Shown in pieces: positions 2,595 to 54,307 of a stretch of 64,000 nt of DNA. The notes beneath the pieces are model-generated. The model had not been told where the DNA came from. It worked only from the letters and a program-made list of their open reading frames with translations, and ran no database searches. This stretch comes from a virus, in IMG/VR virus record IMGVR_UViG_3300007274_000026, positions 1 through 64,000 of that record; one strand, written 5' to 3'. How positions within the stretch are numbered: the stretch's first letter is position 1; the number at the start of each line of letters is the position of its first letter. The translations under genes and the position numbers were made by a program.

Positions 2595-3473
2595 TTAGCC
2601 CAGAGGAGAGACAAAAATGCCGCTGCCGTCTTCCTGCAGAAGCTTGGCTGGCTCCTCTGTAAGCAGGTAACTTGGTGGTTCGCCAATTAGAAGCTTGAAC
2701 GGACCAGTGGTGACAAAGTCGATAGACGACTCGATGACCTCTGCAGCTGCAACCGTGACCGTGACGTTCGTCACGATGCAGTCCGCCTCATACCAAACAG
2801 AGTTTCTGTCAGCTCTCGCGTCGGGTTCACTGGCAGCCGCGTAAACATAAAACCGCCCAAAGAAGTCAGCGCCCTGAACGAGACGGATGCAAAGCTGCGC
2901 AAGGTAAACAGGCAACTCAGCGCCACTGCACCCGCTTGGGTCGCAAAGCTCATGAGCATGGTCCCAAAGGCAGTCAAGCCGCCCTTGTCCTGTGATCAGC
3001 CCTGACTCAAAGCGCTGGCGGAATTCACTTGTTAAAACCGTTGTGTCGACAGTTTCACGTTCAGTTGTAAATTCATACGATCTAATCCGAGCAAGAGACG
3101 AGTATCTTGTCCCCCGAGTTTGGATGTAAATCTTTTGATCAGTGCTTGGATTTTTTAGCTCAATTGCTTTGCTGGCTTCGCCTGCGATTGCATCATTGAA
3201 ACGATCATATAAACGAATCCCGCCCATGATGTCGATAAAAATATAACCGCGCCAATCGCGCCTTTTATGACCAACAATGAAATCCAGCTTGCCCTTAGGG
3301 ACAAGGACAATATCAACTTGATCACCTGAAATCAATTCGCCACGGATGTCCTCAGGAAAACTAAAGCGCCTGCGTTCAGGGTTTACGTCAGCGACACCGA
3401 CGGTGGCCTGAATACCGGTGGCAGCCGTGCGTTTTAGCTCAACCAGACCGCTGTCTCCTAGGTAGACAGTCAT
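2595..3473 (-). CDS. Tail/baseplate structural protein with tail-tube-like C-terminal half
   Basis: 292 aa, MTVYLGDSGLVELKR...; C-terminal part (YEFTTERETVDTT...IESSIDFVTTG) resembles tube-type beta folds; lies in the tail operon. Confidence 0.55.
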   Translation of the reverse strand: MTVYLGDSGLVELKRTAATGIQATVGVADVNPERRRFSFPEDIRGELISGDQVDIVLVPKGKLDFIVGHKRRDWRGYIFIDIMGGIRLYDRFNDAIAGEASKAIELKNPSTDQKIYIQTRGTRYSSLARIRSYEFTTERETVDTTVLTSEFRQRFESGLITGQGRLDCLWDHAHELCDPSGCSGAELPVYLAQLCIRLVQGADFFGRFYVYAAASEPDARADRNSVWYEADCIVTNVTVTVAAAEVIESSIDFVTTGPFKLLIGEPPSYLLTEEPAKLLQEDGSGIFVSPLG

Positions 3474-14352: not shown

Positions 14353-14383
14353 CTCTCTCCCCTGCACCTAGGCTAGCTAGCCA

Positions 14384-18257: not shown

Positions 18258-18324
18258 GATCTAGCTAGCAGTGCTTTGATTTTAGAGCCATCCATAAAAT
18301 GGCAATAACACTTGATTGCCAGCC

Positions 18325-19138: not shown

Positions 19139-19257
19139 TTGATTGGAAAGGTTCGTGGTGGTTTGCCGGTGGAGGCGCAACGCCTTCGCTTCCGACCCCT
19201 GAAGTATAGCACCTCTCTAGCTAGTGTGGTATTGTTGTCACAACAGCAACCACCACC

Positions 19258-19696: not shown

Positions 19697-19914
19697 CAGA
19701 TTCTCAATACGCCCGCTTGCTGTGCCAGTCGCTATGCCAGTGAGGGTGCCACTTCTTTGAAAATGTGCCAGAAATTTATTGGCATAAACAGGGGCAGATC
19801 CATTGGCACAACAGCGATCTAAGCAAAACCGGTACGAACGTACCAAGCAGTCTTTCCACCGCCCTTAGCCAGCAATGGGGCCATATTGAGCGAGCCCCCA
19901 ACCACCACAGACAC

Positions 19915-20783: not shown

Positions 20784-21293
20784 CTACGAACGGCGGGCGC
20801 CAGCGTGAAGCTTGCTGACATGTTGAAACGTGATCCCAAACCGCTCACCAATAGCGGCTTGCGTCATCGTTCCCTTTAGCGCTCGAATCTCCGCCACCTG
20901 CTCATCAGTCAACTTGGCTGCGGGATTCTTCTCACCGCTTAAGTCAGGCATAGTCCCATCCCTGTGTTTGTCCAAAGCGTTCTGGCTGTGGGTGCCATAG
21001 CTCAGGTTCTCAGGGCGGTTATCAAACTTCCCGTTAGGACCATGCAGAACAATCAAGCCCTCAGGCTTTGGCCCAAGGAAGGCCGCGGCCACCGCCTGGT
21101 GAACGGAATAGTCCTTCCGCGTGTAGACGCCGTCACGGACTTGAACAGCGGTGAAGCACAAATAATCACAGCCATGCGATCCACGCATCCGCTGTTTTAG
21201 CGGCTTCTTATTGCGCCGCCCCATGATCCGCCCCTCTGAGCTGACCTTGTATCCCTCGCAGTTCGGCAACGGTATGTCCCGCCATTCAGCCAT
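20784..21293 (-). CDS. NUMOD4-HNH homing endonuclease
   Basis: EWRDIP...Y.VSSEGR, VH..VA.AF.G, H...DNRPENL.YGT.S.N and AKLT..QV.EIR motifs. Confidence 0.9.
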   Translation of the reverse strand: MAEWRDIPLPNCEGYKVSSEGRIMGRRNKKPLKQRMRGSHGCDYLCFTAVQVRDGVYTRKDYSVHQAVAAAFLGPKPEGLIVLHGPNGKFDNRPENLSYGTHSQNALDKHRDGTMPDLSGEKNPAAKLTDEQVAEIRALKGTMTQAAIGERFGITFQHVSKLHAGARRS

Positions 21294-23620: not shown

Positions 23621-23775
23621 TTTTCAAAACCAGCGACGGGGCTGGATCGTGTGGGGCTGAACCCCTGTTGAAACAACTATACCAGCCATAGCTAGAAATG
23701 GTCAACACCATCAATCGACCAAGCGCTAGCCACAAGTGGTGCTATAATAAGAAAGCCAACCACCACAAGGCGTCC

Positions 23776-24233: not shown

Positions 24234-24290
24234 TCACGTCACCTTTGCTAGCCAGCCGTGGTATGATTAACAGGTCAACCACCACCAGCA

Positions 24291-24703: not shown

Positions 24704-25276
24704 ATGACCCTCACACCTTGCAAATCAGGACCGTTCGCTCACCCCGCACTGTCTGCTGACATACCTCGCGTTTTTGGGATTTATCTCACTTGCCCCCATG
24801 CTCACGCCGTTGGTCATCGCTACGGCGCATGGCTTGATTGCTCAATGCTCCTGAACATGGCTGCCTATCAATCCGCCATCACCGAGTTCACAGAATCGTC
24901 ACCCTGGAACACGGACGGTGCTTGGACGATCAGCGATTGGGACATGCCGTGCGTTGCCGTTGAAGACAAATGCTTGGCCACCCTCGCTGAGTACGTCCGC
25001 AACTGGCGCCAGTGCTCAGGCGATCAAGAGCAACAGGCTTACGACGAGTACATCACGGATCGTCGCCAAGTCGTCAGCTACCGCGAATTCAAGGAAGCTC
25101 TGGTTGGGATTTACAAAGACGAAGTCGATTTTTGCTGGGAGCAATGCGACGCGCCCGGCGTTGATGAGTTCGGCGAGTTCGTTGACTGGGATCGCTACTG
25201 GAAGCGCCGCTATGAAAGCGACGGCTACACATCTGCATCCGTAAGCGGCGGGATGGCGATCTTCCGCCCTGTTTAA
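24704..25276 (+). CDS. ardA: ArdA-like antirestriction protein
   Basis: GAWLD, W.ISDWD, F.EA.VG.Y.DEVDF, F.DW..Y and final G..IFR motifs; acidic protein. Confidence 0.7.
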   Translation: MTLTPCKSGPFAHPALSADIPRVFGIYLTCPHAHAVGHRYGAWLDCSMLLNMAAYQSAITEFTESSPWNTDGAWTISDWDMPCVAVEDKCLATLAEYVRNWRQCSGDQEQQAYDEYITDRRQVVSYREFKEALVGIYKDEVDFCWEQCDAPGVDEFGEFVDWDRYWKRRYESDGYTSASVSGGMAIFRPV

Positions 25277-26592: not shown

Positions 26593-26656
26593 CTGTTGCC
26601 ATCTACCACCACTAGCCAGCAGAGGTGCTATGATTAGCTCAACCACCACAAAGCAC

Positions 26657-28006: not shown

Positions 28007-28075
28007 CTAGGCATTCCACCACCACTAGCCAGAAGAGGTGCTATACTTTTCAAGTACCAAGGCAACCACCACGCC

Positions 28076-28348: not shown

Positions 28349-28715
28349 CGGCCGCGGCCCCTTCGGGGGCCACCAACCACCACCCCTAGCCAGCGTGGTA
28401 TAGTGATCAGGTCGGGCGGCAACGCCCGGCGCAACCACCACACCTGGACAACTGAATGACGACTTACGAAGCGATGCATCAGCTCGTCGCCCTACTGCAG
28501 CGTCAACGCGACGCGATCCCTGATCACATCTGGGAAGCGCAGGAAGACACGGAGCTGATGGCCGCCTGGGACGCCCTGAGCGACCTGGAATACGCCCTAG
28601 AGGCGAACAACGTCAAACCATGAGCGAGGGGCCTTCGGGCCCCTTTCCCATGACCTGTTGCCATCGCTAGCCAGCGGTGGTATTATTTGGAAGTCAACCA
28701 CCACCACGACACCCA

Positions 28716-28955: not shown

Positions 28956-29005
28956 TCACCCCGGGGCCTTCGGGCCCCACCACCACCAACCACCACCACA
29001 AAACA

Positions 29006-29239: not shown

Positions 29240-29485
29240 CTCACCACCAACCACCACAGAACAATGAACGACTTCAACGAATGGACGCTCGTCTATGAGG
29301 TCCGCCCTGGCAAATGGATTGAAAAGAAATTCGACACCGCTAGTGAGATGAACGCCTTTAGCGATCAGCGCGCCCGCGAGCGCCGCGAACGCATGGAAGC
29401 CCTGAAGGTCTGGCACCGATCTTGAGCTGATCTACCAGACTGGCTAGAGATGGTGTATGATTCTTTCAAGCCACCACACCAGCCA

Positions 29486-29695: not shown

Positions 29696-29817
29696 ACCCA
29701 CCGGCCAGATCGCCCGCCTCCCGTAAGGGGGGCATTTTTCATGGCCAATCCCTAATGGATCTACCACTGCTGGCTAGAGATGGTGTATACTTTGTTTGTC
29801 GCAACCACCACAAGCCC

Positions 29818-30132: not shown

Positions 30133-30245
30133 TCTGACCGCCCTCCGCAAGGGGGGGGCTTTTTAAATGCTGGCCAATTTCCAGCCCCATTGCTCCATTG
30201 CTGGCTAAAGGTGGTATAGTTATTCCTGTCAGCCACCACACCGAC

Positions 30246-32973: not shown

Positions 32974-33540
32974 ATGAATGAATTTTGCCGCGAAGAATGG
33001 CGCCCAGTAAGAGGCTGGGAAGGTTTTTACGAGGTGAGCAATATCGGCCGCGTTCGATCTGTTGGCCGATACGTCAAAGCAGGACCAAAGGGGGTGGGGC
33101 TTGCTTACAGAGAAAGCCGCATCCTGAAGCAGGGCAAAAATCCAAAGGACGGGCGCCCGATGGTATCCCTGTGGCGCGATAACAAGTACAAGCGATTCAG
33201 CACCCACGTCTTGGTTCTTGAGGCGTTCGTAGGGCCGCGGCCTGAGGGAATGTGGGGGCTGCATGGAAAAGGGGGCTGCCTAGATAACAGGGTTGAAAAC
33301 CTTTATTGGGGCACACCTAGCCGCAACAACTTTGCAGACAAGCTGCGCGATGGCACCTACAGCCCACCGCCAGGGTGGGGCCGTGGAAACAAGAACAAGA
33401 ACGCCAAAGCAACGCCAGAAATCGTGCGGGCAATCCGTGAGTCAGACGAGATTCTGAAGGTGCTAGCTAGCCGTTATGGGCTCAACATCAGCACCGTGTC
33501 AGAGATCAGGCGTCGCCGGACGTGGGCTCATCTTCCGTAG
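32974..33540 (+). CDS. NUMOD4-HNH homing endonuclease
   Basis: EEWRPV.GWEG.YEVSN.GRVRS, H.LVLEAF.G and DNRVENL.WGT motifs; antisense, between the portal and MuF genes. Confidence 0.9.
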   Translation: MNEFCREEWRPVRGWEGFYEVSNIGRVRSVGRYVKAGPKGVGLAYRESRILKQGKNPKDGRPMVSLWRDNKYKRFSTHVLVLEAFVGPRPEGMWGLHGKGGCLDNRVENLYWGTPSRNNFADKLRDGTYSPPPGWGRGNKNKNAKATPEIVRAIRESDEILKVLASRYGLNISTVSEIRRRRTWAHLP

Positions 33541-39289: not shown

Positions 39290-39628
39290 ATGACACCCCG
39301 AACCATGGTTGCCAAGCTTGATCTAGATCCTGAACATCTCTGGGAGGTGTATCAGCGCACCGGCAGCCTCAGAGCGGCAAGTCGGGAGATCGGGGCGGGT
39401 CATATGCTCATCAAAGCCCACCTGCAAAGAGCTGGTTACACCGTCGAGAAAAAAGAGACGGGGCAGTCCATGCACCCCAAATTTAAAATTTATATTCGTC
39501 CCGAGCAATTCGAAGCGCTCGATAAGCTCGCCCACGAACGCGGCGTTGAGAACCGCCACGAGATAGGCCGCCAGCTGCTGGACAAAGCCCTCAAAGAAGA
39601 GCTGAAGGACTGGAAGCCGACCGTTTGA
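39290..39628 (+). CDS. HTH plus ribbon-helix-helix regulator
   Basis: GSLRAASREIG helix-turn-helix; FKIYI.PE..EALD.LA..RG; TATAAT 6 nt before the ATG (leaderless). Confidence 0.6.
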   Translation: MTPRTMVAKLDLDPEHLWEVYQRTGSLRAASREIGAGHMLIKAHLQRAGYTVEKKETGQSMHPKFKIYIRPEQFEALDKLAHERGVENRHEIGRQLLDKALKEELKDWKPTV

Positions 39629-42132: not shown

Positions 42133-42242
42133 GGGCCCAAAACGCATCAGCAAATCCAGCTTAGCTAGTTGCCATGCGTAGCTAGCAGTGGTATGGTTCA
42201 AGGCAACGGGGCAAGCCCCGCAACCACCACCACTTCAACAAC

Positions 42243-43377: not shown

Positions 43378-43815
43378 TTATGGGACCTGCCTGATGGCAA
43401 TCAATGCACCTGGAAGCTCCCCTTCGGCGGCGTAACGCTTGATCGCCGATGTCCTGGCTATACGGGCATCGTCCTGATAGGCAACGTTTGACAAGGCGTC
43501 TTCCGTGCTTCTCAGCAGCTTGCTGATGTCGGGCCGGGTGGAATGCAGAAGAGGGGCGCTTGGTTTGAGCTTGTCAGCGTTCTTGCCTGTGCCGTAGTGC
43601 GAACGGGGGCGCGGGAACACAAACTCAACTTGCATCTCAACCGCCCCCATTAAAGGCTGCGCACCTTCGGCCACGGCGGCATCAGTCACAGCAGCGCGCC
43701 ACGATTTGACGTGTTTACACGATTCGATCATCACGCCATTGCCGACCATCCTTTTGCTGCCTTGGGGCATCGGGATGTGTCCACGGACTTTAATTGTGAT
43801 CTGTTCGTTCATCAA
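43378..43815 (-). CDS. rusA: RusA-like Holliday junction resolvase
   Basis: PQGSK, F.FPRP.SH, PD..KL.RS.EDAL...YQDD motifs. Confidence 0.88.
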   Translation of the reverse strand: MMNEQITIKVRGHIPMPQGSKRMVGNGVMIESCKHVKSWRAAVTDAAVAEGAQPLMGAVEMQVEFVFPRPRSHYGTGKNADKLKPSAPLLHSTRPDISKLLRSTEDALSNVAYQDDARIARTSAIKRYAAEGELPGALIAIRQVP

Positions 43816-43944
43816 GCCAATGCGGCGGTGGTTCCTTTGTGAATTCCTGGTCGACAGCTCTGCGGTAATCCCGTTGCCATCCCCGATCCCTTGCCCACAA
43901 CCAGCCGCGCACTGAAGAACGGACCCGTTGCGGGCGCAGTTTGA

Positions 43945-44916
43945 TTACGCGATAGCTGGGAGCTTCTTCGCTGGCTTCTCCACCATTACCGTTGCGGGTA
44001 GGTTCAGCTGGCATTGATTGATCACTCCTGCTCTGAAACGTAATTTGCGCAGCGCGCTGTCGCGGATCTGCCGCGTGCGCTCACGGCTGACACCATCACG
44101 CCCGCTGCCATCCAGGTTCACCAGCGTTTTGCCAATGTCGCTGAGCTTCATCGGCTTATCAGCTTCAATGCCGTAATAAGAGAGGATCACCGTTCGTTCC
44201 CGGTCGTTCAAACAAGACAGCATCTGTTCGTCCAGGTTGTACTCATCCAGGCTTTCATCAAAAGCCTCACGACGAATGGGTTCTTCTTTGTCGTGGATCA
44301 GATCCAGCAGCATCGTCCAATCGTCATTGCCGACATTGGTGTGAAGGCTGGTGATAGGGGCAAAGGCTTCCAGCGTTTCACGTACTTTGTTTTCGCTGAT
44401 GCTGAGGATTGCGCCGATCTCGGTAAGGCTTGGCTGACGGAAATGCGCCTGCTCGAATTCGGCAGTAACTCTGCGGATCTTGTGATGCAGTTCTGAGATA
44501 TGAAGCGGCAAGCGGATGGAACGGGTCTGCGAGTCGATAGCCCGCGTCATCGCCTGACGAATCCACCAGTAGGCGTAGGTGCTGAACTTGTATCCCCTGG
44601 TGTGATCAAATTTTTCAACAGCACGGTTGAGGCCAATGCTGCCTTCTTGGATCAGGTCGATCAGTTCAAGATTGAAGAAGGAGTATTTTTTAGCTACAGC
44701 AACCACCATCCTGAGGTTGCCTTCAATCATTCGTTTTCGCGCTCGCTGCCCCATGCGAACCGCGCGCAACTGCTGCGGTGTTCGCTCAGAAGGCGGCACT
44801 TCTTCTTCAACCGCTAAACCAGCTTGAACTTTGCGGGAAAGGTCGATTTCTTCGGCTGCAGTCAGAAGGGGGATTTTGCCAATTCTGGACAAATACAAAC
44901 CGAGAGCATCTTTCAT
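43945..44916 (-). CDS. RpoD/SigA-family RNA polymerase sigma factor (phage-encoded)
   Basis: YL..IG..PLLT..EE, NLR.VV.VAKKY, DLIQEG.IGL.RAVEKFD..RGYKFSTYAYWWIRQA, SRER.RQI. Confidence 0.95.
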   Translation of the reverse strand: MKDALGLYLSRIGKIPLLTAAEEIDLSRKVQAGLAVEEEVPPSERTPQQLRAVRMGQRARKRMIEGNLRMVVAVAKKYSFFNLELIDLIQEGSIGLNRAVEKFDHTRGYKFSTYAYWWIRQAMTRAIDSQTRSIRLPLHISELHHKIRRVTAEFEQAHFRQPSLTEIGAILSISENKVRETLEAFAPITSLHTNVGNDDWTMLLDLIHDKEEPIRREAFDESLDEYNLDEQMLSCLNDRERTVILSYYGIEADKPMKLSDIGKTLVNLDGSGRDGVSRERTRQIRDSALRKLRFRAGVINQCQLNLPATVMVEKPAKKLPAIA

Positions 44917-44994
44917 GCGTGGGATAAATGCGCATGGACCGCACCATACAAAAAAATCCCACGATTAGCTAGCAAAGGCTGCGAATAAGTCCAA

Positions 44995-45104
44995 ACAGCA
45001 GAAAACCCCCAGCCGGTATGCGGACTGAGGGTTTTCCCCGATGCCGCATGCAAGCGACAGTCGGACGGGACCACGCAACCACCACAGAAGTGTGGCCCCG
45101 CGAT
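44995..45104 (-). ncRNA. Candidate three-hairpin small RNA whose loop is antisense to the phage leader motif
   Basis: Promoter TTGCCA-18bp-TATGAT (45140-45111); three stems; loop contains UGUGGUGGUUG; the last stem ends in GUUUUC. Confidence 0.65.
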
Positions 45105-45230
45105 GTAGTCATCATACCACGTAGCTAGGGCTGGTGGCAAAGTTTGGCGATGCGCGACATCACAACATGCGCTACATGGACCATAAGGAATGAATGCATA
45201 CCTAAAGCGCACATAGACTCTCACTGGACT

Positions 45231-45722
45231 TTAGGCGTGCCTGGCGAACTCCCCATGCAACTCCTCGCGCTTTGCTCTGACCGCTTCCAGGGCTTCCTCC
45301 TTGGTCTTATGGCACCCGAGGTAGTGACTGACCTTGTTCACCTGAACACGCGCCATCCAGCGCTGGCTGGACTTGTCAAAGCGAACGCCTTTGTCAGGGC
45401 GCGACTGATTCATCATGTTCTGGCTATGGGTGGCCTCCCGCAGGTTGCTGATGCGGTTGTCAAAGCCGTTCCCGTTGCGGTGGTCGACCCGCCCCGCAGG
45501 GTCAGTCCCGTAATACAACTTCCAAGCAATGCGGTGCTCAAGAAACGATCCCTGCGGGTGGAACGTAATAGATCGGTATCTAGGGGTTTTGTTGCCAGCG
45601 CGGTCACCTGCCTTTACAGCGTGCCCGTTGCCTACTTTCCAGGTCAACACGCCAGTTTCGGGGCAATAGTTCAGCTTCTCCTGCAGAAACTCCAGTGGCG
45701 GGAGGGGTTTTGAGTTATGCAT
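45231..45722 (-). CDS. HNH-AP2 homing endonuclease
   Basis: Y.PETG.L.W, HRIAW, DH.NG...DNRI.NLR.AT..QN, then AP2-like GV.F...W.A.....YLG. Confidence 0.9.
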   Translation of the reverse strand: MHNSKPLPPLEFLQEKLNYCPETGVLTWKVGNGHAVKAGDRAGNKTPRYRSITFHPQGSFLEHRIAWKLYYGTDPAGRVDHRNGNGFDNRISNLREATHSQNMMNQSRPDKGVRFDKSSQRWMARVQVNKVSHYLGCHKTKEEALEAVRAKREELHGEFARHA

Positions 45723-47033
45723 AAAATCACTTTAGCCTATGCAAGGTGCTCCACAACCGAACAAGATTCAGCATTAGAAGCTCAAATAGTTCGGCTAAAA
45801 GAAGCGGGCGCAGAGAAAGTTATTAGCGAACTTATTTCAGGAAGGAATAACGAAAGGCCAGGGATCCTCGAGGCCATGGCCATGGTGAAAAAGGGGATGG
45901 TCAAAGAACTGCTGGTGACGCGGGTTGATCGTCTGGGTCGTGACGCGGGTTACGCGGACCAACTGCTGGCTTTATGCCAAGACAGCGGGGTGATCGTTCG
46001 GGCGCTCGATGGAGGGGAGATCGAGACGGCAAGCCCTCAGGGATTTCTGATGGCCCGCATGATGACTTCGATGGCTGAGATGGAATCGAAAATGCTGTCC
46101 ATGCGCATCAAACGAAGCTTTGCGGTATACAGAGCTCAAGGACGTCACTTAAAGCGCAGGTTGATCTTCGGCTACACGAAGGGTGAAAACTTCAAGCTCG
46201 CCCCGCATCCTGAGAATTGGGACAAAGCCCTGTATGTGATCGAGCTACTCAAAGAGCTTGGCTCGTTCACGAAGGTCAGCCAACGATTAGGGAAGGAAGG
46301 TTTCCCGTGGACTCCCGCCTCATCGAATTTAGAATTTTGGTTCGTCAACCCAACAATCCGCGGCCACCTTCCCCACCTATGGGATCGCAGCAGCGGCAAA
46401 GGCTGGAAAGCCAACTGGAAGGAGACCTATTTTGACCAACACCCTGCCCTGATCAGTGAGCACGATTGGCGCGAGCTGGCCGACAAGCTCCGCAGGGTCA
46501 AGAACAACTTTGAGCAAACAGGCAAATCCCCAGGACATGGCCTGACGGGCGTTCTGTCCTGCATGAGTTGCGGCCATAACCTCAGACGCAACACCAGCCA
46601 AGGAACGGTCTGGTGGTCCTGCCGCAACCGCAATTGCAGCGCTCGTGGTCGCGGCAAGGAAATCGACCTGATTCAGCTTGCTGCTGTTGAGTCAGCCAAG
46701 GCTGCCAAGCGCCTCGCCCAGCTAATGGCAACGCCGCAAGCGGAAGATCCGCGGGTGGCAATGAAACGGGCTGACCTGCAAGCTCTGCAGGCTCTTGCTG
46801 TTCGTAACCCGTCAATGCTTCCAGCCGTGGAAGCATTGAAAAATGAGATCACTGCAATGCAGCAGACGGACGCGCCTCAAGTCGACGTGAGCCGATATGA
46901 GGCCTTTACCCGCGATCCAGAGCTGTTTCTAGATCAGTCGCCTGCCGTTCAGCGAGCGCTTTTTCTGCACGTCCTACAAACGATTCAGGTAGGTCAGGGA
47001 GGGGTTGCCCAGTCCGTTCCGCGTGTCGCTTGA
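45717..47033 (+). CDS. Large serine recombinase (integrase)
   Basis: YARCST..Q catalytic Ser, SG...RPG, RVDRLGR, E.ES...S.RI, FGY, zinc ribbon CMSCG...CRNRNC. Confidence 0.92.
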   Translation: MHKITLAYARCSTTEQDSALEAQIVRLKEAGAEKVISELISGRNNERPGILEAMAMVKKGMVKELLVTRVDRLGRDAGYADQLLALCQDSGVIVRALDGGEIETASPQGFLMARMMTSMAEMESKMLSMRIKRSFAVYRAQGRHLKRRLIFGYTKGENFKLAPHPENWDKALYVIELLKELGSFTKVSQRLGKEGFPWTPASSNLEFWFVNPTIRGHLPHLWDRSSGKGWKANWKETYFDQHPALISEHDWRELADKLRRVKNNFEQTGKSPGHGLTGVLSCMSCGHNLRRNTSQGTVWWSCRNRNCSARGRGKEIDLIQLAAVESAKAAKRLAQLMATPQAEDPRVAMKRADLQALQALAVRNPSMLPAVEALKNEITAMQQTDAPQVDVSRYEAFTRDPELFLDQSPAVQRALFLHVLQTIQVGQGGVAQSVPRVA

Positions 47034-47727: not shown

Positions 47728-48264
47728 CTAGCTAGCCAGTAGCTGCGCCGCTTCAACAACTTTTGAATGCGCCTCCTGCACCGCCTGAACCCTGATGGCG
47801 AAACCTGGATCCTTCAGGTTGCCGCCAATCTGGTTTAACTCTTGGATGGCTTTCTGAGCTTGGTTCAACCTCTTCTGAGCATCTCGCCAGACCAGCTCAA
47901 AATGCTCTGGATTGTCCTTCAAGGATGCCGCAGTGACATAAACGCCAGGGTCCTTCGGCTTCTCATATTCAAGCTCTCGAACGTTGTAGTAAAGCGGCGT
48001 TGGCGCCGGGTCTTTGTCGTACCAAACTTCAACCCACTTGATCAGGTCGCGGCTTTGGTGCTTGCGATATTCGTTCGCCGCAACGTCATTACGCCACTCA
48101 AAGCACTCATGCAATGGAGCCTGTTCAGGCTCGGATGCATCCACAACACCTTGCGCTGTTAATGCACCTTGATCGGCCTCAATGTCAGCCAAGGCTTCGC
48201 CGACATTGTCGGCCGTTAGTCCGTGCTTGGTTTTGGATCCGTCCCTGAATGCGTAGCTGGTCAT
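47728..48264 (-). CDS. Conserved phage protein downstream of the GGY-NN array (accessory gene)
   Basis: G.LT...VVDAS.PE..PLH.CFEW.ND.AA..YR..Q.R.LI motif. Confidence 0.75.
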   Translation of the reverse strand: MTSYAFRDGSKTKHGLTADNVGEALADIEADQGALTAQGVVDASEPEQAPLHECFEWRNDVAANEYRKHQSRDLIKWVEVWYDKDPAPTPLYYNVRELEYEKPKDPGVYVTAASLKDNPEHFELVWRDAQKRLNQAQKAIQELNQIGGNLKDPGFAIRVQAVQEAHSKVVEAAQLLAS

Positions 48265-49576: not shown

Positions 49577-49712
49577 GGTGGTTTCGAAAAAGGTGCCCGA
49601 AGGCGTGAATAGCGAAGCCGTTGCCTCGCTTGTGCAAACAATACCACAGCTAGCTAGCACAGGCAATAAAAAAGCTCCGCATTTGCGGAGCCTTGAATCT
49701 GTGGGGTGTTGA

Positions 49713-50991: not shown

Positions 50992-51005
50992 CGCTAGCTA
51001 GTCCC

Positions 51006-51482: not shown

Positions 51483-51738
51483 GGAGATGCGGTGGTTGAC
51501 CCCTTTACTGTACCAGTATTGGCTAGCCCGGCAGTGAGCCGAAAAGAGCGTTTCTAGCCAGTCAGGTCCAGTTAACTGGTGCTTAAGCGGACTGTCGTCT
51601 TAAAATCAAAGTTCATGTAACGCTTAATACGCGAATTGTTGAAACGGCATTGCACGACGCAAGCGGAAGCTGATTGGTGCTGGCGAAATCGCCAGGTTCT
51701 TATGGAAGCAGCAAATGAATCTGAAATTCAGATCCTGG

Positions 51739-54293: not shown

Positions 54294-54307
54294 GTGTGGT
54301 GGTTGTA

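What the first reader, a model, noticed from the sequence alone, without database searches (positions are those of the whole stretch)
44995..45140. Small structured RNA whose loop is the exact antisense of the leader shared by more than 20 phage genes
Seen: a near-consensus promoter on the minus strand (TTGCCA-18 bp-TATGAT with extended -10, 45140-45111) and no ORF behind it. The ~105-nt transcript folds into three stems: GCGGGGCCAC/GUGGUCCCGU enclosing ACUUCUGUGGUGGUUGC; CCGA-UGUCGC/GCGGCA-UCGG; and GAAAACCCUCAGUC/GGCUGGGGGUUUUC. The loop UGUGGUGGUUG is complementary to CAACCACCACA, which sits in the translation-initiation region of the early genes, dcd and dnaB. Established: P1 C4 and P4 CI RNAs confer immunity through loop-target pairing. 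Inference: one sRNA may switch a whole regulon post-transcriptionally (lysogeny, immunity or early shut-off), or act as a translation adaptor. It lies between the integrase region and the sigma factor gene, so it could instead be an attenuating leader for sigma.
Basis: partly seen in the sequence, partly recalled or inferred. Interest (0 to 1): 0.85.

Follow-up and report, generated by a model that had tools for sequence, protein, structure and literature searches.

The report
Cyanophage small RNA mirroring start-site tag
A phage of marine picocyanobacteria marks about fifteen of its early genes with one short C/A-rich tag where a ribosome-binding site would normally sit, and it carries a conserved small RNA gene whose exposed loop is the exact mirror of that tag, so one RNA probably switches translation of the whole gene set, although no transcript or effect has been shown.

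Summary
On the minus strand at 45140-44995 there is a promoter (TTGCCA-18-TGgTATGAT), about 110 nt with no conserved ORF, three hairpins (z -5.4) and a terminator-like last hairpin. The 17-nt loop of hairpin 1 contains UGUGGUGGUUG. This is the exact antisense of CAACCACCACA, whose 9-nt core is tied for the most frequent 9-mer in this 72.5-kb cyanophage genome.

With one mismatch or less the tag occurs 19 times (1.4 expected). Sixteen copies lie 0-13 nt before start codons of 15 non-structural genes (ArdA, ERF, DnaB and small early ORFs). None of these has a Shine-Dalgarno tetramer.

New evidence: three metagenomic relatives (sigma factor 53-56% identical) have a hairpin at the same place upstream of sigma. 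One unrelated viral contig has one too. In all of them the loop 12-mer CUGUGGUGGUUG is invariant and the stems are entirely different but still pair. The viral contig's two neighbouring genes carry a tag that fits its own loop.

Best reading (0.6): a trans-acting anti-tag sRNA that masks a C/A-rich translation element and represses early genes, like GcvB or P1 c4. It matches no Rfam family. Expression is untested. Earlier notes from this scan report similar tag-plus-mirror RNAs on other phage DNA.

The parts
45135..45140 (-). -35 hexamer TTGCCA of the sRNA promoter
   Evidence: 10 of 12 consensus matches, spacer 18
45122..45128 (-). CTAGCTA box in the promoter spacer. The same box (CTAGCYA, 2-7 nt before TGGTA...) sits in the promoters of the tagged early genes.
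   Evidence: sequence reading only
45111..45119 (-). extended -10: TG-g-TATGAT
44995..45104 (-). predicted sRNA of about 105-110 nt. The start is inferred at about 7 nt after the -10, and the end in the U-rich tail.
   Evidence: fold, z -5.37; ends are inferred, no RNA data
45065..45101 (-). hairpin 1: 10-bp stem GCGGGGCCAC/GUGGUCCCGU with a 17-nt loop
   Evidence: z -2.96; stem covaries in relatives
45076..45087 (-). invariant loop 12-mer CUGUGGUGGUUG. The anti-tag 11-mer UGUGGUGGUUG is 45086-45076.
   Evidence: 12 invariant columns in 5 sequences
45038..45064 (-). hairpin 2 (CCGA-UGUCGC / GCGGCA-UCGG, loop UUGCAU). Its loop varies in close relatives.
   Evidence: differences at 45049, 45050, 45053
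44992..45036 (-). hairpin 3 (GAAAACCCUCAGUC / GGCUGGGGGUUUUC) plus tail UGCUGUUU: a terminator-like end
   Evidence: not flagged by the simple terminator scan; loop indels in close relatives
19247..19257 (+). tag CAACCACCACC, 0 nt before the ATG of a 72-aa ORF
19899..19909 (+). exact tag, 5 nt before an ATG (69 aa)
23757..23767 (+). exact tag, 8 nt before an ATG (82 aa), behind a CTAGCCA promoter cassette
24276..24286 (+). tag (1 mismatch), 4 nt before an ATG (65 aa). The next gene (24704-25276, ArdA) has the variant AAACCACCACC.
26640..26650 (+). exact tag, 6 nt before an ATG (76 aa)
28063..28073 (+). tag (1 mismatch), 2 nt before an ATG (90 aa)
28432..28442 (+). exact tag, 13 nt before an ATG (55 aa)
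28695..28705 (+). tag (1 mismatch), 10 nt before an ATG (79 aa)
28987..29000 (+). two overlapping tag copies, 5-8 nt before an ATG (77 aa)
29248..29258 (+). exact tag, extended to 14 nt of complementarity (CAACCACCACAGAA), 5 nt before an ATG (53 aa). Strongest predicted duplex, -24.7 kcal/mol.
29802..29812 (+). exact tag, 5 nt before the GTG of a DUF7717 protein (104 aa)
30230..30240 (+). tag (1 mismatch), 5 nt before an ATG (63 aa)
42221..42231 (+). tag (1 mismatch), 11 nt before a GTG (105 aa)
51488..51498 (-). tag (1 mismatch), 5 nt before the ATG of an ERF-family recombinase (158 aa)
54295..54305 (-). exact tag, 1 nt before the ATG of the DnaB-like helicase (474 aa)
43945..44916 (-). neighbouring gene: group-2-like sigma-70 factor (regions 1.2, 2, 3, 4). 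The sRNA unit lies upstream of it here and in three relatives. Its own start region carries no tag in this phage.
44943..44972 (-). promoter-like site between the sRNA terminator and sigma: CTAGCTA, then 17 nt after TAGCTA, then TATGGT
   Evidence: sequence reading only

Best explanation
This is a gene for a trans-acting, base-pairing small RNA of about 105-110 nt, encoded by a siphovirus-like phage of marine picocyanobacteria.

Shown from sequence:
- It has its own promoter. The promoter belongs to the same class as the early-gene promoters (CTAGCYA box plus extended -10) and additionally has a good -35.
- It has three hairpins and a terminator-like 3' end.
- In relatives only the 12 loop nucleotides CUGUGGUGGUUG are kept, while the stems are replaced by other sequences that still pair.
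- The loop is the exact mirror of a C/A-rich tag, (C)AACCACCAC(A). The tag takes the place of the Shine-Dalgarno sequence 0-13 nt before the start codons of 15 early or non-structural genes.

Inferred:
- The tag is a translation-promoting element for a host that uses few Shine-Dalgarno sites.
- The G/U-rich loop pairs with the tag (11-14 bp, predicted -14 to -25 kcal/mol) inside the region that a 30S subunit must occupy. This blocks initiation and possibly speeds decay of the early mRNAs.
- The RNA is driven by an early-type promoter and is strongly structured. It would therefore accumulate during infection and turn early protein synthesis down (an RNA timer or dampener). If the phage lysogenises, the same RNA could keep these genes quiet.
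For: 1. Anatomy. The promoter scores 10 of 12 with TG. Fold z is -5.37, with 0 of 200 shuffles as good. No tRNA was found. No Rfam family matched at gathering score or at E up to 10 (best E about 4).

2. Tag statistics. There are 19 sites against 1.37 expected, and 0 of 100 shuffles reach 19. Sixteen of the 19 lie within 20 nt of a start, covering 15 genes, and none of the 16 has GGAG, GAGG or AGGA. AACCACCAC is tied for the top 9-mer of the genome. Tagged genes include ArdA (variant tag), DUF7717, ERF and DnaB.

3. The only tag copy that is antisense to its local transcription unit is the one inside this RNA gene.

4. Conservation. Of 198 loci holding a sigma homologue, only the three closest (L107 56%, L108 56%, L109 53% identity) carry the 12-mer. 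In each it lies 170-220 nt upstream of sigma, on the same strand, behind a -10 box and inside a hairpin. Outside the 12-16 loop letters the 314-nt intergenic region shows no similarity to them. All five hairpins fold better than shuffles: z -2.96, -3.61, -5.15, -2.52, -4.65. On a model-fitted alignment of 4 sequences, 97.4% of cells pair, 7 of 10 pairs change on both sides, 0 of 500 shuffles reach this, and slid registers give 28-47%.

5. A second system. Viral contig L048 has TGGTATATT, a 13-bp hairpin with the same loop, and a U-run. Its two adjacent genes start with AGGAGCAACCACC-N-ATG, and 12 nt of this (GGAGCAACCACC) mirror its loop plus the stem edge. There the pairing would cover a canonical Shine-Dalgarno sequence.

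6. Close relatives in DNA runs. The best-supported differences inside the RNA lie in the loops of hairpins 2 and 3, and none is listed in hairpin 1. The adjacent sigma coding region shows about 25-30 listed differences.

7. Predicted loop-to-start-region duplexes average -17.1 kcal/mol for 9 tagged starts, against -10.5 (sd 3.1) for 104 untagged starts.

8. No frame with an ATG start is open over the loop in all five units.

9. Precedent. GcvB silences C/A-rich, ACA-containing translational enhancers in many mRNAs (PMC3879156, abstract read). P1/P7 c4 RNA blocks a ribosome-binding site through loop pairing (review PMC12197685, passages).
Against: - No RNA evidence of any kind exists. The transcript ends, the pairing and the direction of the effect are all inferred.
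- One sRNA promoter would have to match about 20 target promoters of the same class, so strong repression needs a stable or recycled RNA.
- Full-length cofold gains are small for several targets (-1.5 to -4.6 kcal/mol for 10 of 32).
- The loop has weak internal pairs, 2 bp here and up to 6 bp in L108.
- Twelve of 104 untagged starts also reach -14 kcal/mol or lower.
- The covariation rests on only 4-5 sequences. The alignment was fitted to the structure. L048 was picked among 70 exact 16-mer hits because it forms a hairpin.
- 315 differences were not shown by read laying, so hairpin 1 may not be fully invariant in close relatives.
- The relatives' contigs are only 3.6-7.4 kb, so co-occurrence of tag and loop could be checked for only a few genes.
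- Synechococcus phage S-CBS1 has similar CACCACCC tags before five early-strand starts, and I found no mirrored hairpin in it. The tag can therefore exist without this RNA.
Confidence: 0.6

Rival explanations
1. Same molecule and same pairing, but the biological role is superinfection or lysogenic immunity, as with P1/P7 c4 or P4 CI. The RNA would be made from the prophage. It would keep the tagged early genes of the resident phage, and of incoming relatives that share the tag, untranslated.
For: The unit lies about 600 nt from a serine recombinase gene (45717-47033), which is where immunity regions usually lie. I found no CI-like repressor among the 28 ORFs scanned against Pfam; the only candidate is a weak RHH match at 39290-39628. 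The promoter has a good host-type -35. Relatives share the identical loop, so cross-immunity would follow.
Against: Loop and tag are invariant across lineages with only 53-56% sigma identity, and in an unrelated contig. Immunity specificities usually diversify, as they do between P1 and P7. Translation-level silencing of about 20 separately promoted genes by one single-copy gene is demanding. No prophage copy turned up: none among the 80 genome loci kept by the sigma search, and none in 151 sampled cyanobacterial genomes. The Pfam survey did not cover every ORF.
Confidence: 0.2
2. It is the 5' leader of the sigma-factor mRNA and acts in cis. Hairpin 3 would attenuate read-through into sigma, and the loop would pair with the sigma start region or with another part of the same transcript.
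For: It always lies directly upstream of sigma on the same strand, in 4 of 4 syntenic cases. In L107 and L108 the sigma start region reads CCAUCACAG-AUG, which pairs with loop CUGUGGUGG with one G-U. L107's last hairpin lacks a U-run. In the high-GC contig L047 the same loop sits immediately upstream, on the same strand, of a CCCACCACCACCAC leader.
Against: In this phage and in L109 the sigma start region has no complementarity to the loop. A terminator-like hairpin with a U-rich tail and a further promoter-like site (TAGCTA-17-TATGGT) separate the unit from sigma. The relatives have a comparable CTAGCTAGC...TATAAG site before sigma. L048 has the hairpin with a U-run and no sigma gene beside it in the region inspected. 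A cis role would not explain why the loop mirrors tags on 15 distant genes.
Confidence: 0.1
3. The RNA helps the tagged mRNAs instead of repressing them. It might protect their 5' ends from degradation, open structure, or bridge them to the ribosome.
For: Many tags lie about 8-10 nt after a -10 box, that is at or near the 5' end of the mRNA, where a duplex could hinder 5'-end-dependent decay. The RNA shares its promoter class with its targets.
Against: The duplex would lie 0-13 nt from the start codon, inside the 30S footprint. In L048 it would cover the AGGAG Shine-Dalgarno sequence. Nothing else in the RNA is conserved that could contact a ribosome. Neither the 11-mer nor its complement occurs in 47 of 151 cyanobacterial genomes, so the loop does not copy a ribosomal RNA segment.
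Confidence: 0.07
4. It is not a functional RNA. On this view it is a decayed plus-strand gene start that kept its tag, or a chance hairpin, or an RNA aimed at host transcripts.
For: The plus strand reads the tag in sense at 45076-45086. No expression data exist.
Against: No plus-strand start codon of a sizeable ORF follows within 20 nt. The plus-strand ORF 45144-45713 overlaps the HNH-AP2 gene, which has Pfam support on the other strand. The promoter, the terminator tail and the synteny all lie on the minus strand. Stems covary. The tag is not enriched in 151 cyanobacterial genomes; counts are like those of the reversed control.
Confidence: 0.03

Closest known systems
GcvB sRNA and its C/A-rich (ACA) target elements in enterobacteria (Yang, Figueroa-Bossi and Bossi 2014, PMC3879156, abstract read; Sharma et al. 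2007 recalled, not read)
   Same: A G/U-rich single-stranded seed pairs with C/A-rich elements at or just upstream of ribosome-binding sites of many mRNAs. The targeted element is itself a translational enhancer, so masking it silences the gene.
   Different: GcvB is a chromosomal, Hfq-dependent regulator of amino-acid transport. Here the RNA is phage-encoded, has no GcvB match in Rfam, and presents the seed in a hairpin loop. The targets are the phage's own early genes, which lack a Shine-Dalgarno sequence altogether. Enhancer activity of the tag is not tested.
c4 antisense RNA of phages P1 and P7 (review PMC12197685, passages read) and CI RNA of satellite phage P4 (recalled)
   Same: A small, structured, phage-encoded RNA whose loops pair with phage mRNA around a ribosome-binding site and block expression of early or lytic functions.
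   Different: c4 acts on one operon, its own transcript upstream of ant, and sets heteroimmunity through loop differences. P4 CI causes transcription termination. Here there are 15 or more dispersed, separately promoted targets that share a private tag. The unit has its own promoter and terminator. The loop is invariant between relatives. There is no Rfam C4 match.
Start-associated sequences (SAS) of Cluster K mycobacteriophages (Pope et al. 2011, PMC3203893, passages read; 2025 survey PMC12699233, passages read)
   Same: A short asymmetric repeat lies a few nt before start codons. It is confined to non-structural genes, lies in one orientation, and is absent from the host genome. The function is unknown, and the authors leave open a phage-encoded RNA or protein partner. 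[quoted passage not shown]
   Different: SAS contains the AGGAG Shine-Dalgarno core, and the tag here has none. The passages I read name no partner RNA for SAS. Here a conserved hairpin RNA carries the mirror copy. The hosts (actinobacteria and cyanobacteria) and the sequences are unrelated.
T4 RegA translational repressor and RegB endoribonuclease (recalled; review PMC3014915 seen only as a search listing)
   Same: A phage-encoded device that shuts off many early mRNAs by acting on their translation initiation regions.
   Different: Those are proteins. Here the proposed effector is an RNA that recognises a defined tag by base pairing.

Membership tests
P1/P7 c4 antisense RNA (Rfam family C4; name recalled) | Matches the curated covariance model | tested here: not met
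   No Rfam family at gathering score in the whole window. In 44850-45250 at E up to 10 there were only three chance-level matches (rnk_pseudo, P15, BTH_s1; E 4-5).
P1/P7 c4 antisense RNA (Rfam family C4; name recalled) | Loop sequences complementary to phage mRNA at a ribosome-binding site | tested here: met
   The loop 11-mer is the exact antisense of the tag 0-13 nt before 15 starts.
P1/P7 c4 antisense RNA (Rfam family C4; name recalled) | Processed from the same operon transcript as its single target (ant/icd) | tested here: not met
   The unit has its own promoter and terminator-like end, and its targets are dispersed over 19-54 kb on both strands. Processing itself is not testable here.
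GcvB-type multi-target sRNA that silences C/A-rich enhancers | G/U-rich single-stranded seed | tested here: met
   The conserved CUGUGGUGGUUG is 11 of 12 G/U and lies in the loop of hairpin 1 in five sequences. Weak inner pairs are predicted.
GcvB-type multi-target sRNA that silences C/A-rich enhancers | Many targets with C/A-rich elements at or before the ribosome-binding site | tested here: met
   Fifteen genes under the strict definition and up to 32 candidate starts under the loose one.
GcvB-type multi-target sRNA that silences C/A-rich enhancers | Sequence or structure homology to GcvB; Hfq dependence; the target element enhances translation | tested here: not met
   There is no Rfam GcvB match. 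Hfq dependence and enhancer activity cannot be tested with these tools.
Start-associated sequences (Cluster K mycobacteriophages) | Short asymmetric repeat within a few nt of start codons, in non-structural genes, in one orientation | tested here: met
   Sixteen of 19 copies lie 0-13 nt before starts. All are in mRNA sense except the copy in the RNA gene. None was found before the structural genes.
Start-associated sequences (Cluster K mycobacteriophages) | Contains the AGGAG Shine-Dalgarno core (consensus GGGATAGGAGCCC) | tested here: not met
   The tag has no G at all, and none of the 16 tagged starts has GGAG, GAGG or AGGA.
Start-associated sequences (Cluster K mycobacteriophages) | Rare or absent in host genomes | tested here: met
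   In 151 cyanobacterial genomes the counts match the reversed-pattern control, and 47 genomes have no copy on either strand. The true host is not known.
Independent sRNA gene (promoter, structured body, intrinsic terminator, no ORF) | Promoter and terminator on the same strand, no conserved reading frame, structure conserved by compensatory change | tested here: met
   The terminator is judged by eye, since the simple scan did not flag it.
Independent sRNA gene (promoter, structured body, intrinsic terminator, no ORF) | A discrete transcript exists | not testable with these tools
   No run on record as RNA holds this DNA.

The most novel reading that the evidence does not exclude
Tag-plus-mirror-RNA may be a general, so far undescribed layer of phage gene control. 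Phages would give a block of genes a private start-site tag that can replace the Shine-Dalgarno sequence, and would carry one master hairpin RNA with the tag's mirror image. This would form an RNA-only switch for the whole block.

Here the CCACCAC-type tag and its GUGGUGG loop recur in four cyanophage lineages. The identical 16-nt loop also occurs next to a CCACCACCACCAC leader in a 67% G+C viral contig (L047). Unchecked notes from this scan report analogous pairs in at least 19 other phage genomes.

The single reverse-oriented SAS copy reported for Cluster K mycobacteriophages could be the same thing.
Probability: 0.35. Interest if true: 0.85.

Novelty: new variant of a known kind. Interest (0 to 1): 0.75.

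Why it matters
If the pairing is real, it gives a concrete RNA partner for start-associated tags. The function of such tags has been open since they were described in mycobacteriophages in 2011. It would also show a phage running a whole early regulon through one small RNA.

It bears on how translation starts in picocyanobacteria, where most genes lack Shine-Dalgarno sites. A defined 9-11-nt C/A-rich element that stands in for the ribosome-binding site is directly testable.

In practice, a tag and anti-tag pair would be a compact, orthogonal translation switch for cyanobacterial engineering. It would also be a marker for annotating early genes and non-coding RNAs in uncultured phage genomes.

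Tried and rejected
**Known RNA classes.** No tRNA or tmRNA was found. Rfam gave nothing at gathering score and only chance-level matches at E up to 10.

**Close relatives in phage records.** blastn and megablast found nothing. tblastn with sigma found only relatives of about 42% identity or less among the 30 records listed, including S-CBS1, S-CBS3 and KBS-S-2A. One record in the 60-80% identity band was not among them. S-CBS1 has CACCACCC tags but no mirrored hairpin. I looked at only 5.9 kb around the S-CBS3 sigma gene.

**IMG/VR.**
- 35 sigma loci (47% identity or less) have no similarity to the RNA.
- The exact loop 16-mer gave 70 loci, a number close to what chance would give. Most lie in coding regions. 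I kept L048, noted L047 as a possible case, and rejected L078 and L054.
- The promoter-plus-tag cassette pattern gave 7 hits, which I judged to be chance.
- The promoter shared by L107 and L108 gave 0 hits.
- The L048 leader pattern gave 35 loci, L048 among them. None of the 34 new ones has the loop hairpin.

**Genome contigs.** The sigma search returned only cyanobacterial sigma genes of 44% identity or less and no prophage.

**Covariance models.** R2 found nothing new in 100 loci. In 151 cyanobacterial genomes it gave 5 hits at E 0.1 or less, and all are generic G+C hairpins without the 12-mer.

**Host-target idea.** The tag is not enriched in 151 cyanobacterial genomes or in one other genome.

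**Alignments.** MAFFT alignments A1 and A2 put the stems out of register. I therefore used a single-sequence model to obtain a structural alignment.

**RNA evidence.** No RNA holder is listed for this DNA. Only DNA contigs could be laid.

**Literature.** Five searches ran. None gave a paper that describes this RNA, this tag or a tag-plus-mirror RNA in phages. The motif-string search returned primers and unrelated sequences. The P-SS2 paper (passages read) mentions no such motif. I could not see its supplementary promoter table and logo, nor the SAS paper's supplementary figures, and these could bear on motif claims.

Full report
**What the DNA is.** The window is bases 1-64000 of a 72,540-bp IMG/VR virus record rated complete, with 54% G+C.

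Next to the finding lie:
- a sigma-70 gene with regions 1.2, 2, 3 and 4 (43945-44916, minus strand);
- a RusA gene;
- an HNH-AP2 endonuclease gene (45231-45722, minus strand);
- a serine recombinase gene (45717-47033, plus strand).

The named homologues of the sigma protein, at about 46-50% identity, come from Cyanobium and Synechococcus. Closer homologues (51-93%) are unnamed, mostly metagenome proteins. DNA runs that hold the stretch are labelled marine or aquatic metagenomes. I read this as a siphovirus-like phage of picocyanobacteria. The host is inferred, not shown.

**The observation.** On the minus strand the sequence reads TTGCCA (45140-45135), an 18-nt spacer, then TG-g-TATGAT (45119-45111). 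This is the only promoter-like site in 43800-46000. Over that region the scan's count of 1 is no higher than in its shuffles (mean 1.4).

From about 45104 the RNA folds into three hairpins:
- hairpin 1 at 45101-45065, with a 10-bp stem and the 17-nt loop ACUUCUGUGGUGGUUGC;
- hairpin 2 at 45064-45038;
- hairpin 3 at 45036-45001, followed by UGCUGUUU.

The MFE is -60.8 kcal/mol, z is -5.37, and 0 of 200 shuffles fold as well. The simple terminator scan did not flag hairpin 3, so I call it terminator-like from the sequence alone.

Two ORFs (48 and 103 aa) overlap the unit on this strand. Both begin upstream of the predicted start of transcription. The longer one has no Pfam match. No frame with an ATG start is open over the loop in all five homologous units.

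**The tag.** CAACCACCACA with one mismatch or less occurs 19 times, against 1.37 expected; 0 of 100 shuffles reach 19. The remaining 8.5 kb of the genome adds none.

- Eight copies are exact.
- Sixteen of the 19 lie 0-13 nt before an ATG or GTG of an ORF of at least 45 aa. That makes 15 genes, because two copies precede one start.
- None of the 16 has GGAG, GAGG or AGGA.
- The three exceptions are a copy before a promoter cassette (28374), a copy inside a gene (49559), and the copy inside the RNA gene, which is the only one antisense to its own transcription unit.

AACCACCAC is tied for the most frequent 9-mer of the genome. A looser core search gives 32 candidate starts with spacers of 1-17 nt, and some of those are spurious.

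Tagged genes are non-structural. They include a DUF7717 protein, an ERF recombinase, DnaB and many small ORFs at 19-30 kb. ArdA and dCTP deaminase carry variant tags. My crude survey of 113 ORFs found no tag before the structural genes, and most of those also lack a Shine-Dalgarno sequence.

Most tagged genes sit behind a promoter cassette of the form CTAGCYA, 2-7 nt, (T)GGT..TAnnaT. The RNA's own promoter contains the same cassette (CTAGCTA-cg-TGGTATGAT) plus a better -35. The RNA would therefore be made together with its presumed targets. This is an inference.

**Relatives.** IMG/VR and the phage records held no close relative.

A metagenome scan with sigma gave L107, L108 and L109, at 56, 56 and 53% identity. 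In each, a hairpin lies 170-220 nt upstream of sigma, on the same strand and behind a -10 box. Its loop contains CUGUGGUGGUUG. Further hairpins follow, and then a promoter-like site for sigma. Among 198 loci with a sigma homologue, only these three have the 12-mer upstream.

Outside the 12-16 loop letters, the 314-nt intergenic region of the window has no detectable similarity to them. L107, L108 and L109 also differ from one another in the RNA body.

All hairpins fold better than their shuffles. On an alignment of four sequences fitted to a model built from the window's hairpin, 97.4% of cells pair and 7 of 10 pairs change on both sides. No shuffle out of 500 reaches this, and slid registers give 28-47% paired. 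This is only four sequences on a fitted alignment, so it is supportive rather than conclusive. L108 has a 32-nt insertion in the loop and aligned poorly. By eye it has a 12-bp stem.

**A second system.** Among 70 IMG/VR loci with the exact loop 16-mer, most are coding-sequence coincidences. The 7.4-kb contig L048 is different. It reads TGGTATATT, 9 nt, a 13-bp hairpin with loop CGCUUCUGUGGUGGUUGCUC, and then a U-run.

Its two divergently placed neighbouring genes begin AGGAGCAACCACC-C-ATG and AGGAGCAACCACC-A-ATG. Twelve nucleotides of each (GGAGCAACCACC) mirror the loop and the first stem bases. There the pairing would cover a canonical Shine-Dalgarno sequence, which argues for repression. I picked L048 because it forms a hairpin, so the hairpin is not independent evidence. 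Its promoter, its terminator and the matching tags are.

**Close relatives in sequencing runs.** There were no RNA runs. DNA contigs of three runs cover the RNA at 80-95% likeness. The listed differences inside it are at 45049, 45050 and 45053 (the loop of hairpin 2). There are also indels at 45016-45024 (the loop of hairpin 3) and at 45111-45114. None is listed in hairpin 1, while the neighbouring sigma coding region has about 25-30 listed differences. Another 315 differences were not printed, so this is only suggestive.

**Host checks.** In 151 cyanobacterial genomes the tag is as rare as its reversed control. Forty-seven genomes have it on neither strand. So neither the tag nor its mirror is part of ribosomal RNA or of any conserved host gene. 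A covariance model of hairpin 1 found only generic G+C hairpins in 151 genomes.

**Mechanism.** What is shown is a conserved, structured, non-coding unit whose single invariant element is the mirror of a tag that occupies the ribosome-binding position of 15 early genes.

What is inferred is that loop and tag pair. The pairing would be 11 bp, and up to 14 bp at 29248. Predicted loop-to-start-region duplexes run from -12.6 to -24.7 kcal/mol. The mean is -17.1 for 9 tagged starts against -10.5 for 104 untagged starts. This pairing inside the 30S footprint would lower initiation.

The tag is invariant across diverged phages, and S-CBS1 has related CACCACCC tags without a mirrored hairpin. This suggests that the tag has a function of its own in translation, and that the RNA evolved to mask it. 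This is the logic shown for GcvB and ACA enhancers.

The loop does not diversify between relatives, and the RNA shares the early promoter class. I therefore favour a timer or dampener of early translation over an immunity determinant, but the two are not exclusive.

Points against are the lack of any RNA data, the stoichiometry (one RNA promoter against about 20 target promoters), and the small full-length cofold gains for some targets.

**Comparison with what is known.** The unit works like GcvB (a G/U seed against C/A elements, with many targets) and like P1 c4 (a phage loop against a phage ribosome-binding site). It is a member of neither, since Rfam gives no match and the architecture differs.

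The tags resemble the start-associated sequences of Cluster K mycobacteriophages in position, orientation, gene class and absence from the host. They differ in having no Shine-Dalgarno core. The authors of that paper left open an RNA or protein partner. They also noted one reverse-oriented copy away from gene starts in four phages.

My five literature searches that ran gave no paper that describes a tag-plus-mirror RNA in phages.

Earlier notes from this scan describe similar pairs in at least 19 other phage genomes, one with a CACCACCAC tag. They are unchecked AI notes, and I did not use them as evidence.

**Verdict.** This is a new variant of a known kind (a base-pairing sRNA) with an unusual regulon defined by a private start tag. 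Interest is 0.75.

Noticed in passing
whole genome, e.g. window 14373-14383, 18261-18268, 33463-33470, 47728-47735, 49650-49657, 50994-51001: CTAGC[CT][AG] occurs 108 times on both strands in 72.5 kb, against roughly 35 expected from length. CTAGCTAGC is among the top 9-mers, with 19 copies. It lies in the spacers of early promoters and also right at many gene junctions and before late-gene starts. It could be an operator, an element for the phage sigma factor, or a stop-in-several-frames junction.
   Followed up: partly
L047:3110-3153 (minus strand) and the 60 nt downstream: A 67% G+C viral contig has the identical 16-nt loop CUUCUGUGGUGGUUGC in a long G+C hairpin. On the same strand it is directly followed by CCCACCACCACCAC...GAAAGGAA...ATG of a 195-aa ORF. 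This is either a cis version of the same tag and mirror pair in an unrelated phage, or chance.
   Followed up: partly
L107 about 600-623 and L108 about 3350-3374 (just before the sigma start): In two relatives the sigma gene's own start region reads CCAUCACAG-AUG. This pairs with the loop's CUGUGGUGG with one G-U, so sigma itself may be a target there. The window's sigma and L109's lack this.
   Followed up: partly
L109:440-470: Hairpin 2 of the L109 RNA contains the sense-like stretch GACCACCC. It could pair with the RNA's own anti-tag loop (a possible self-masking or kissing contact).
   Followed up: no
L276 (Synechococcus phage S-CBS1) about 21313, 23715, 25196, 25865, 26087, minus strand: The cultured cyanosiphovirus S-CBS1 has CACCACCC 3-40 nt before five early-strand starts, including its sigma factor gene. 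I found no hairpin with the mirror sequence.
   Followed up: partly
window 45231-45722 (minus strand) and 20784-21293 (minus strand): There are two HNH endonuclease genes, one with an AP2 domain and one with NUMOD4. The first ends 90 nt before the sRNA promoter, so a homing-endonuclease insertion may have shaped this intergenic region.
   Followed up: no
window 24704-25276 (plus strand): A tagged early gene encodes an ArdA-like anti-restriction protein (Pfam E 2.4e-6, just above the cut-off).
   Followed up: no
window 28374-28442 and 28979-29000: Some tags are doubled or stacked (CCACCACCACCAACCACCACCAC). One copy precedes a promoter cassette instead of a start. Several follow small G+C hairpins such as GGGGCCUUCGGGCCCC.
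   Followed up: no
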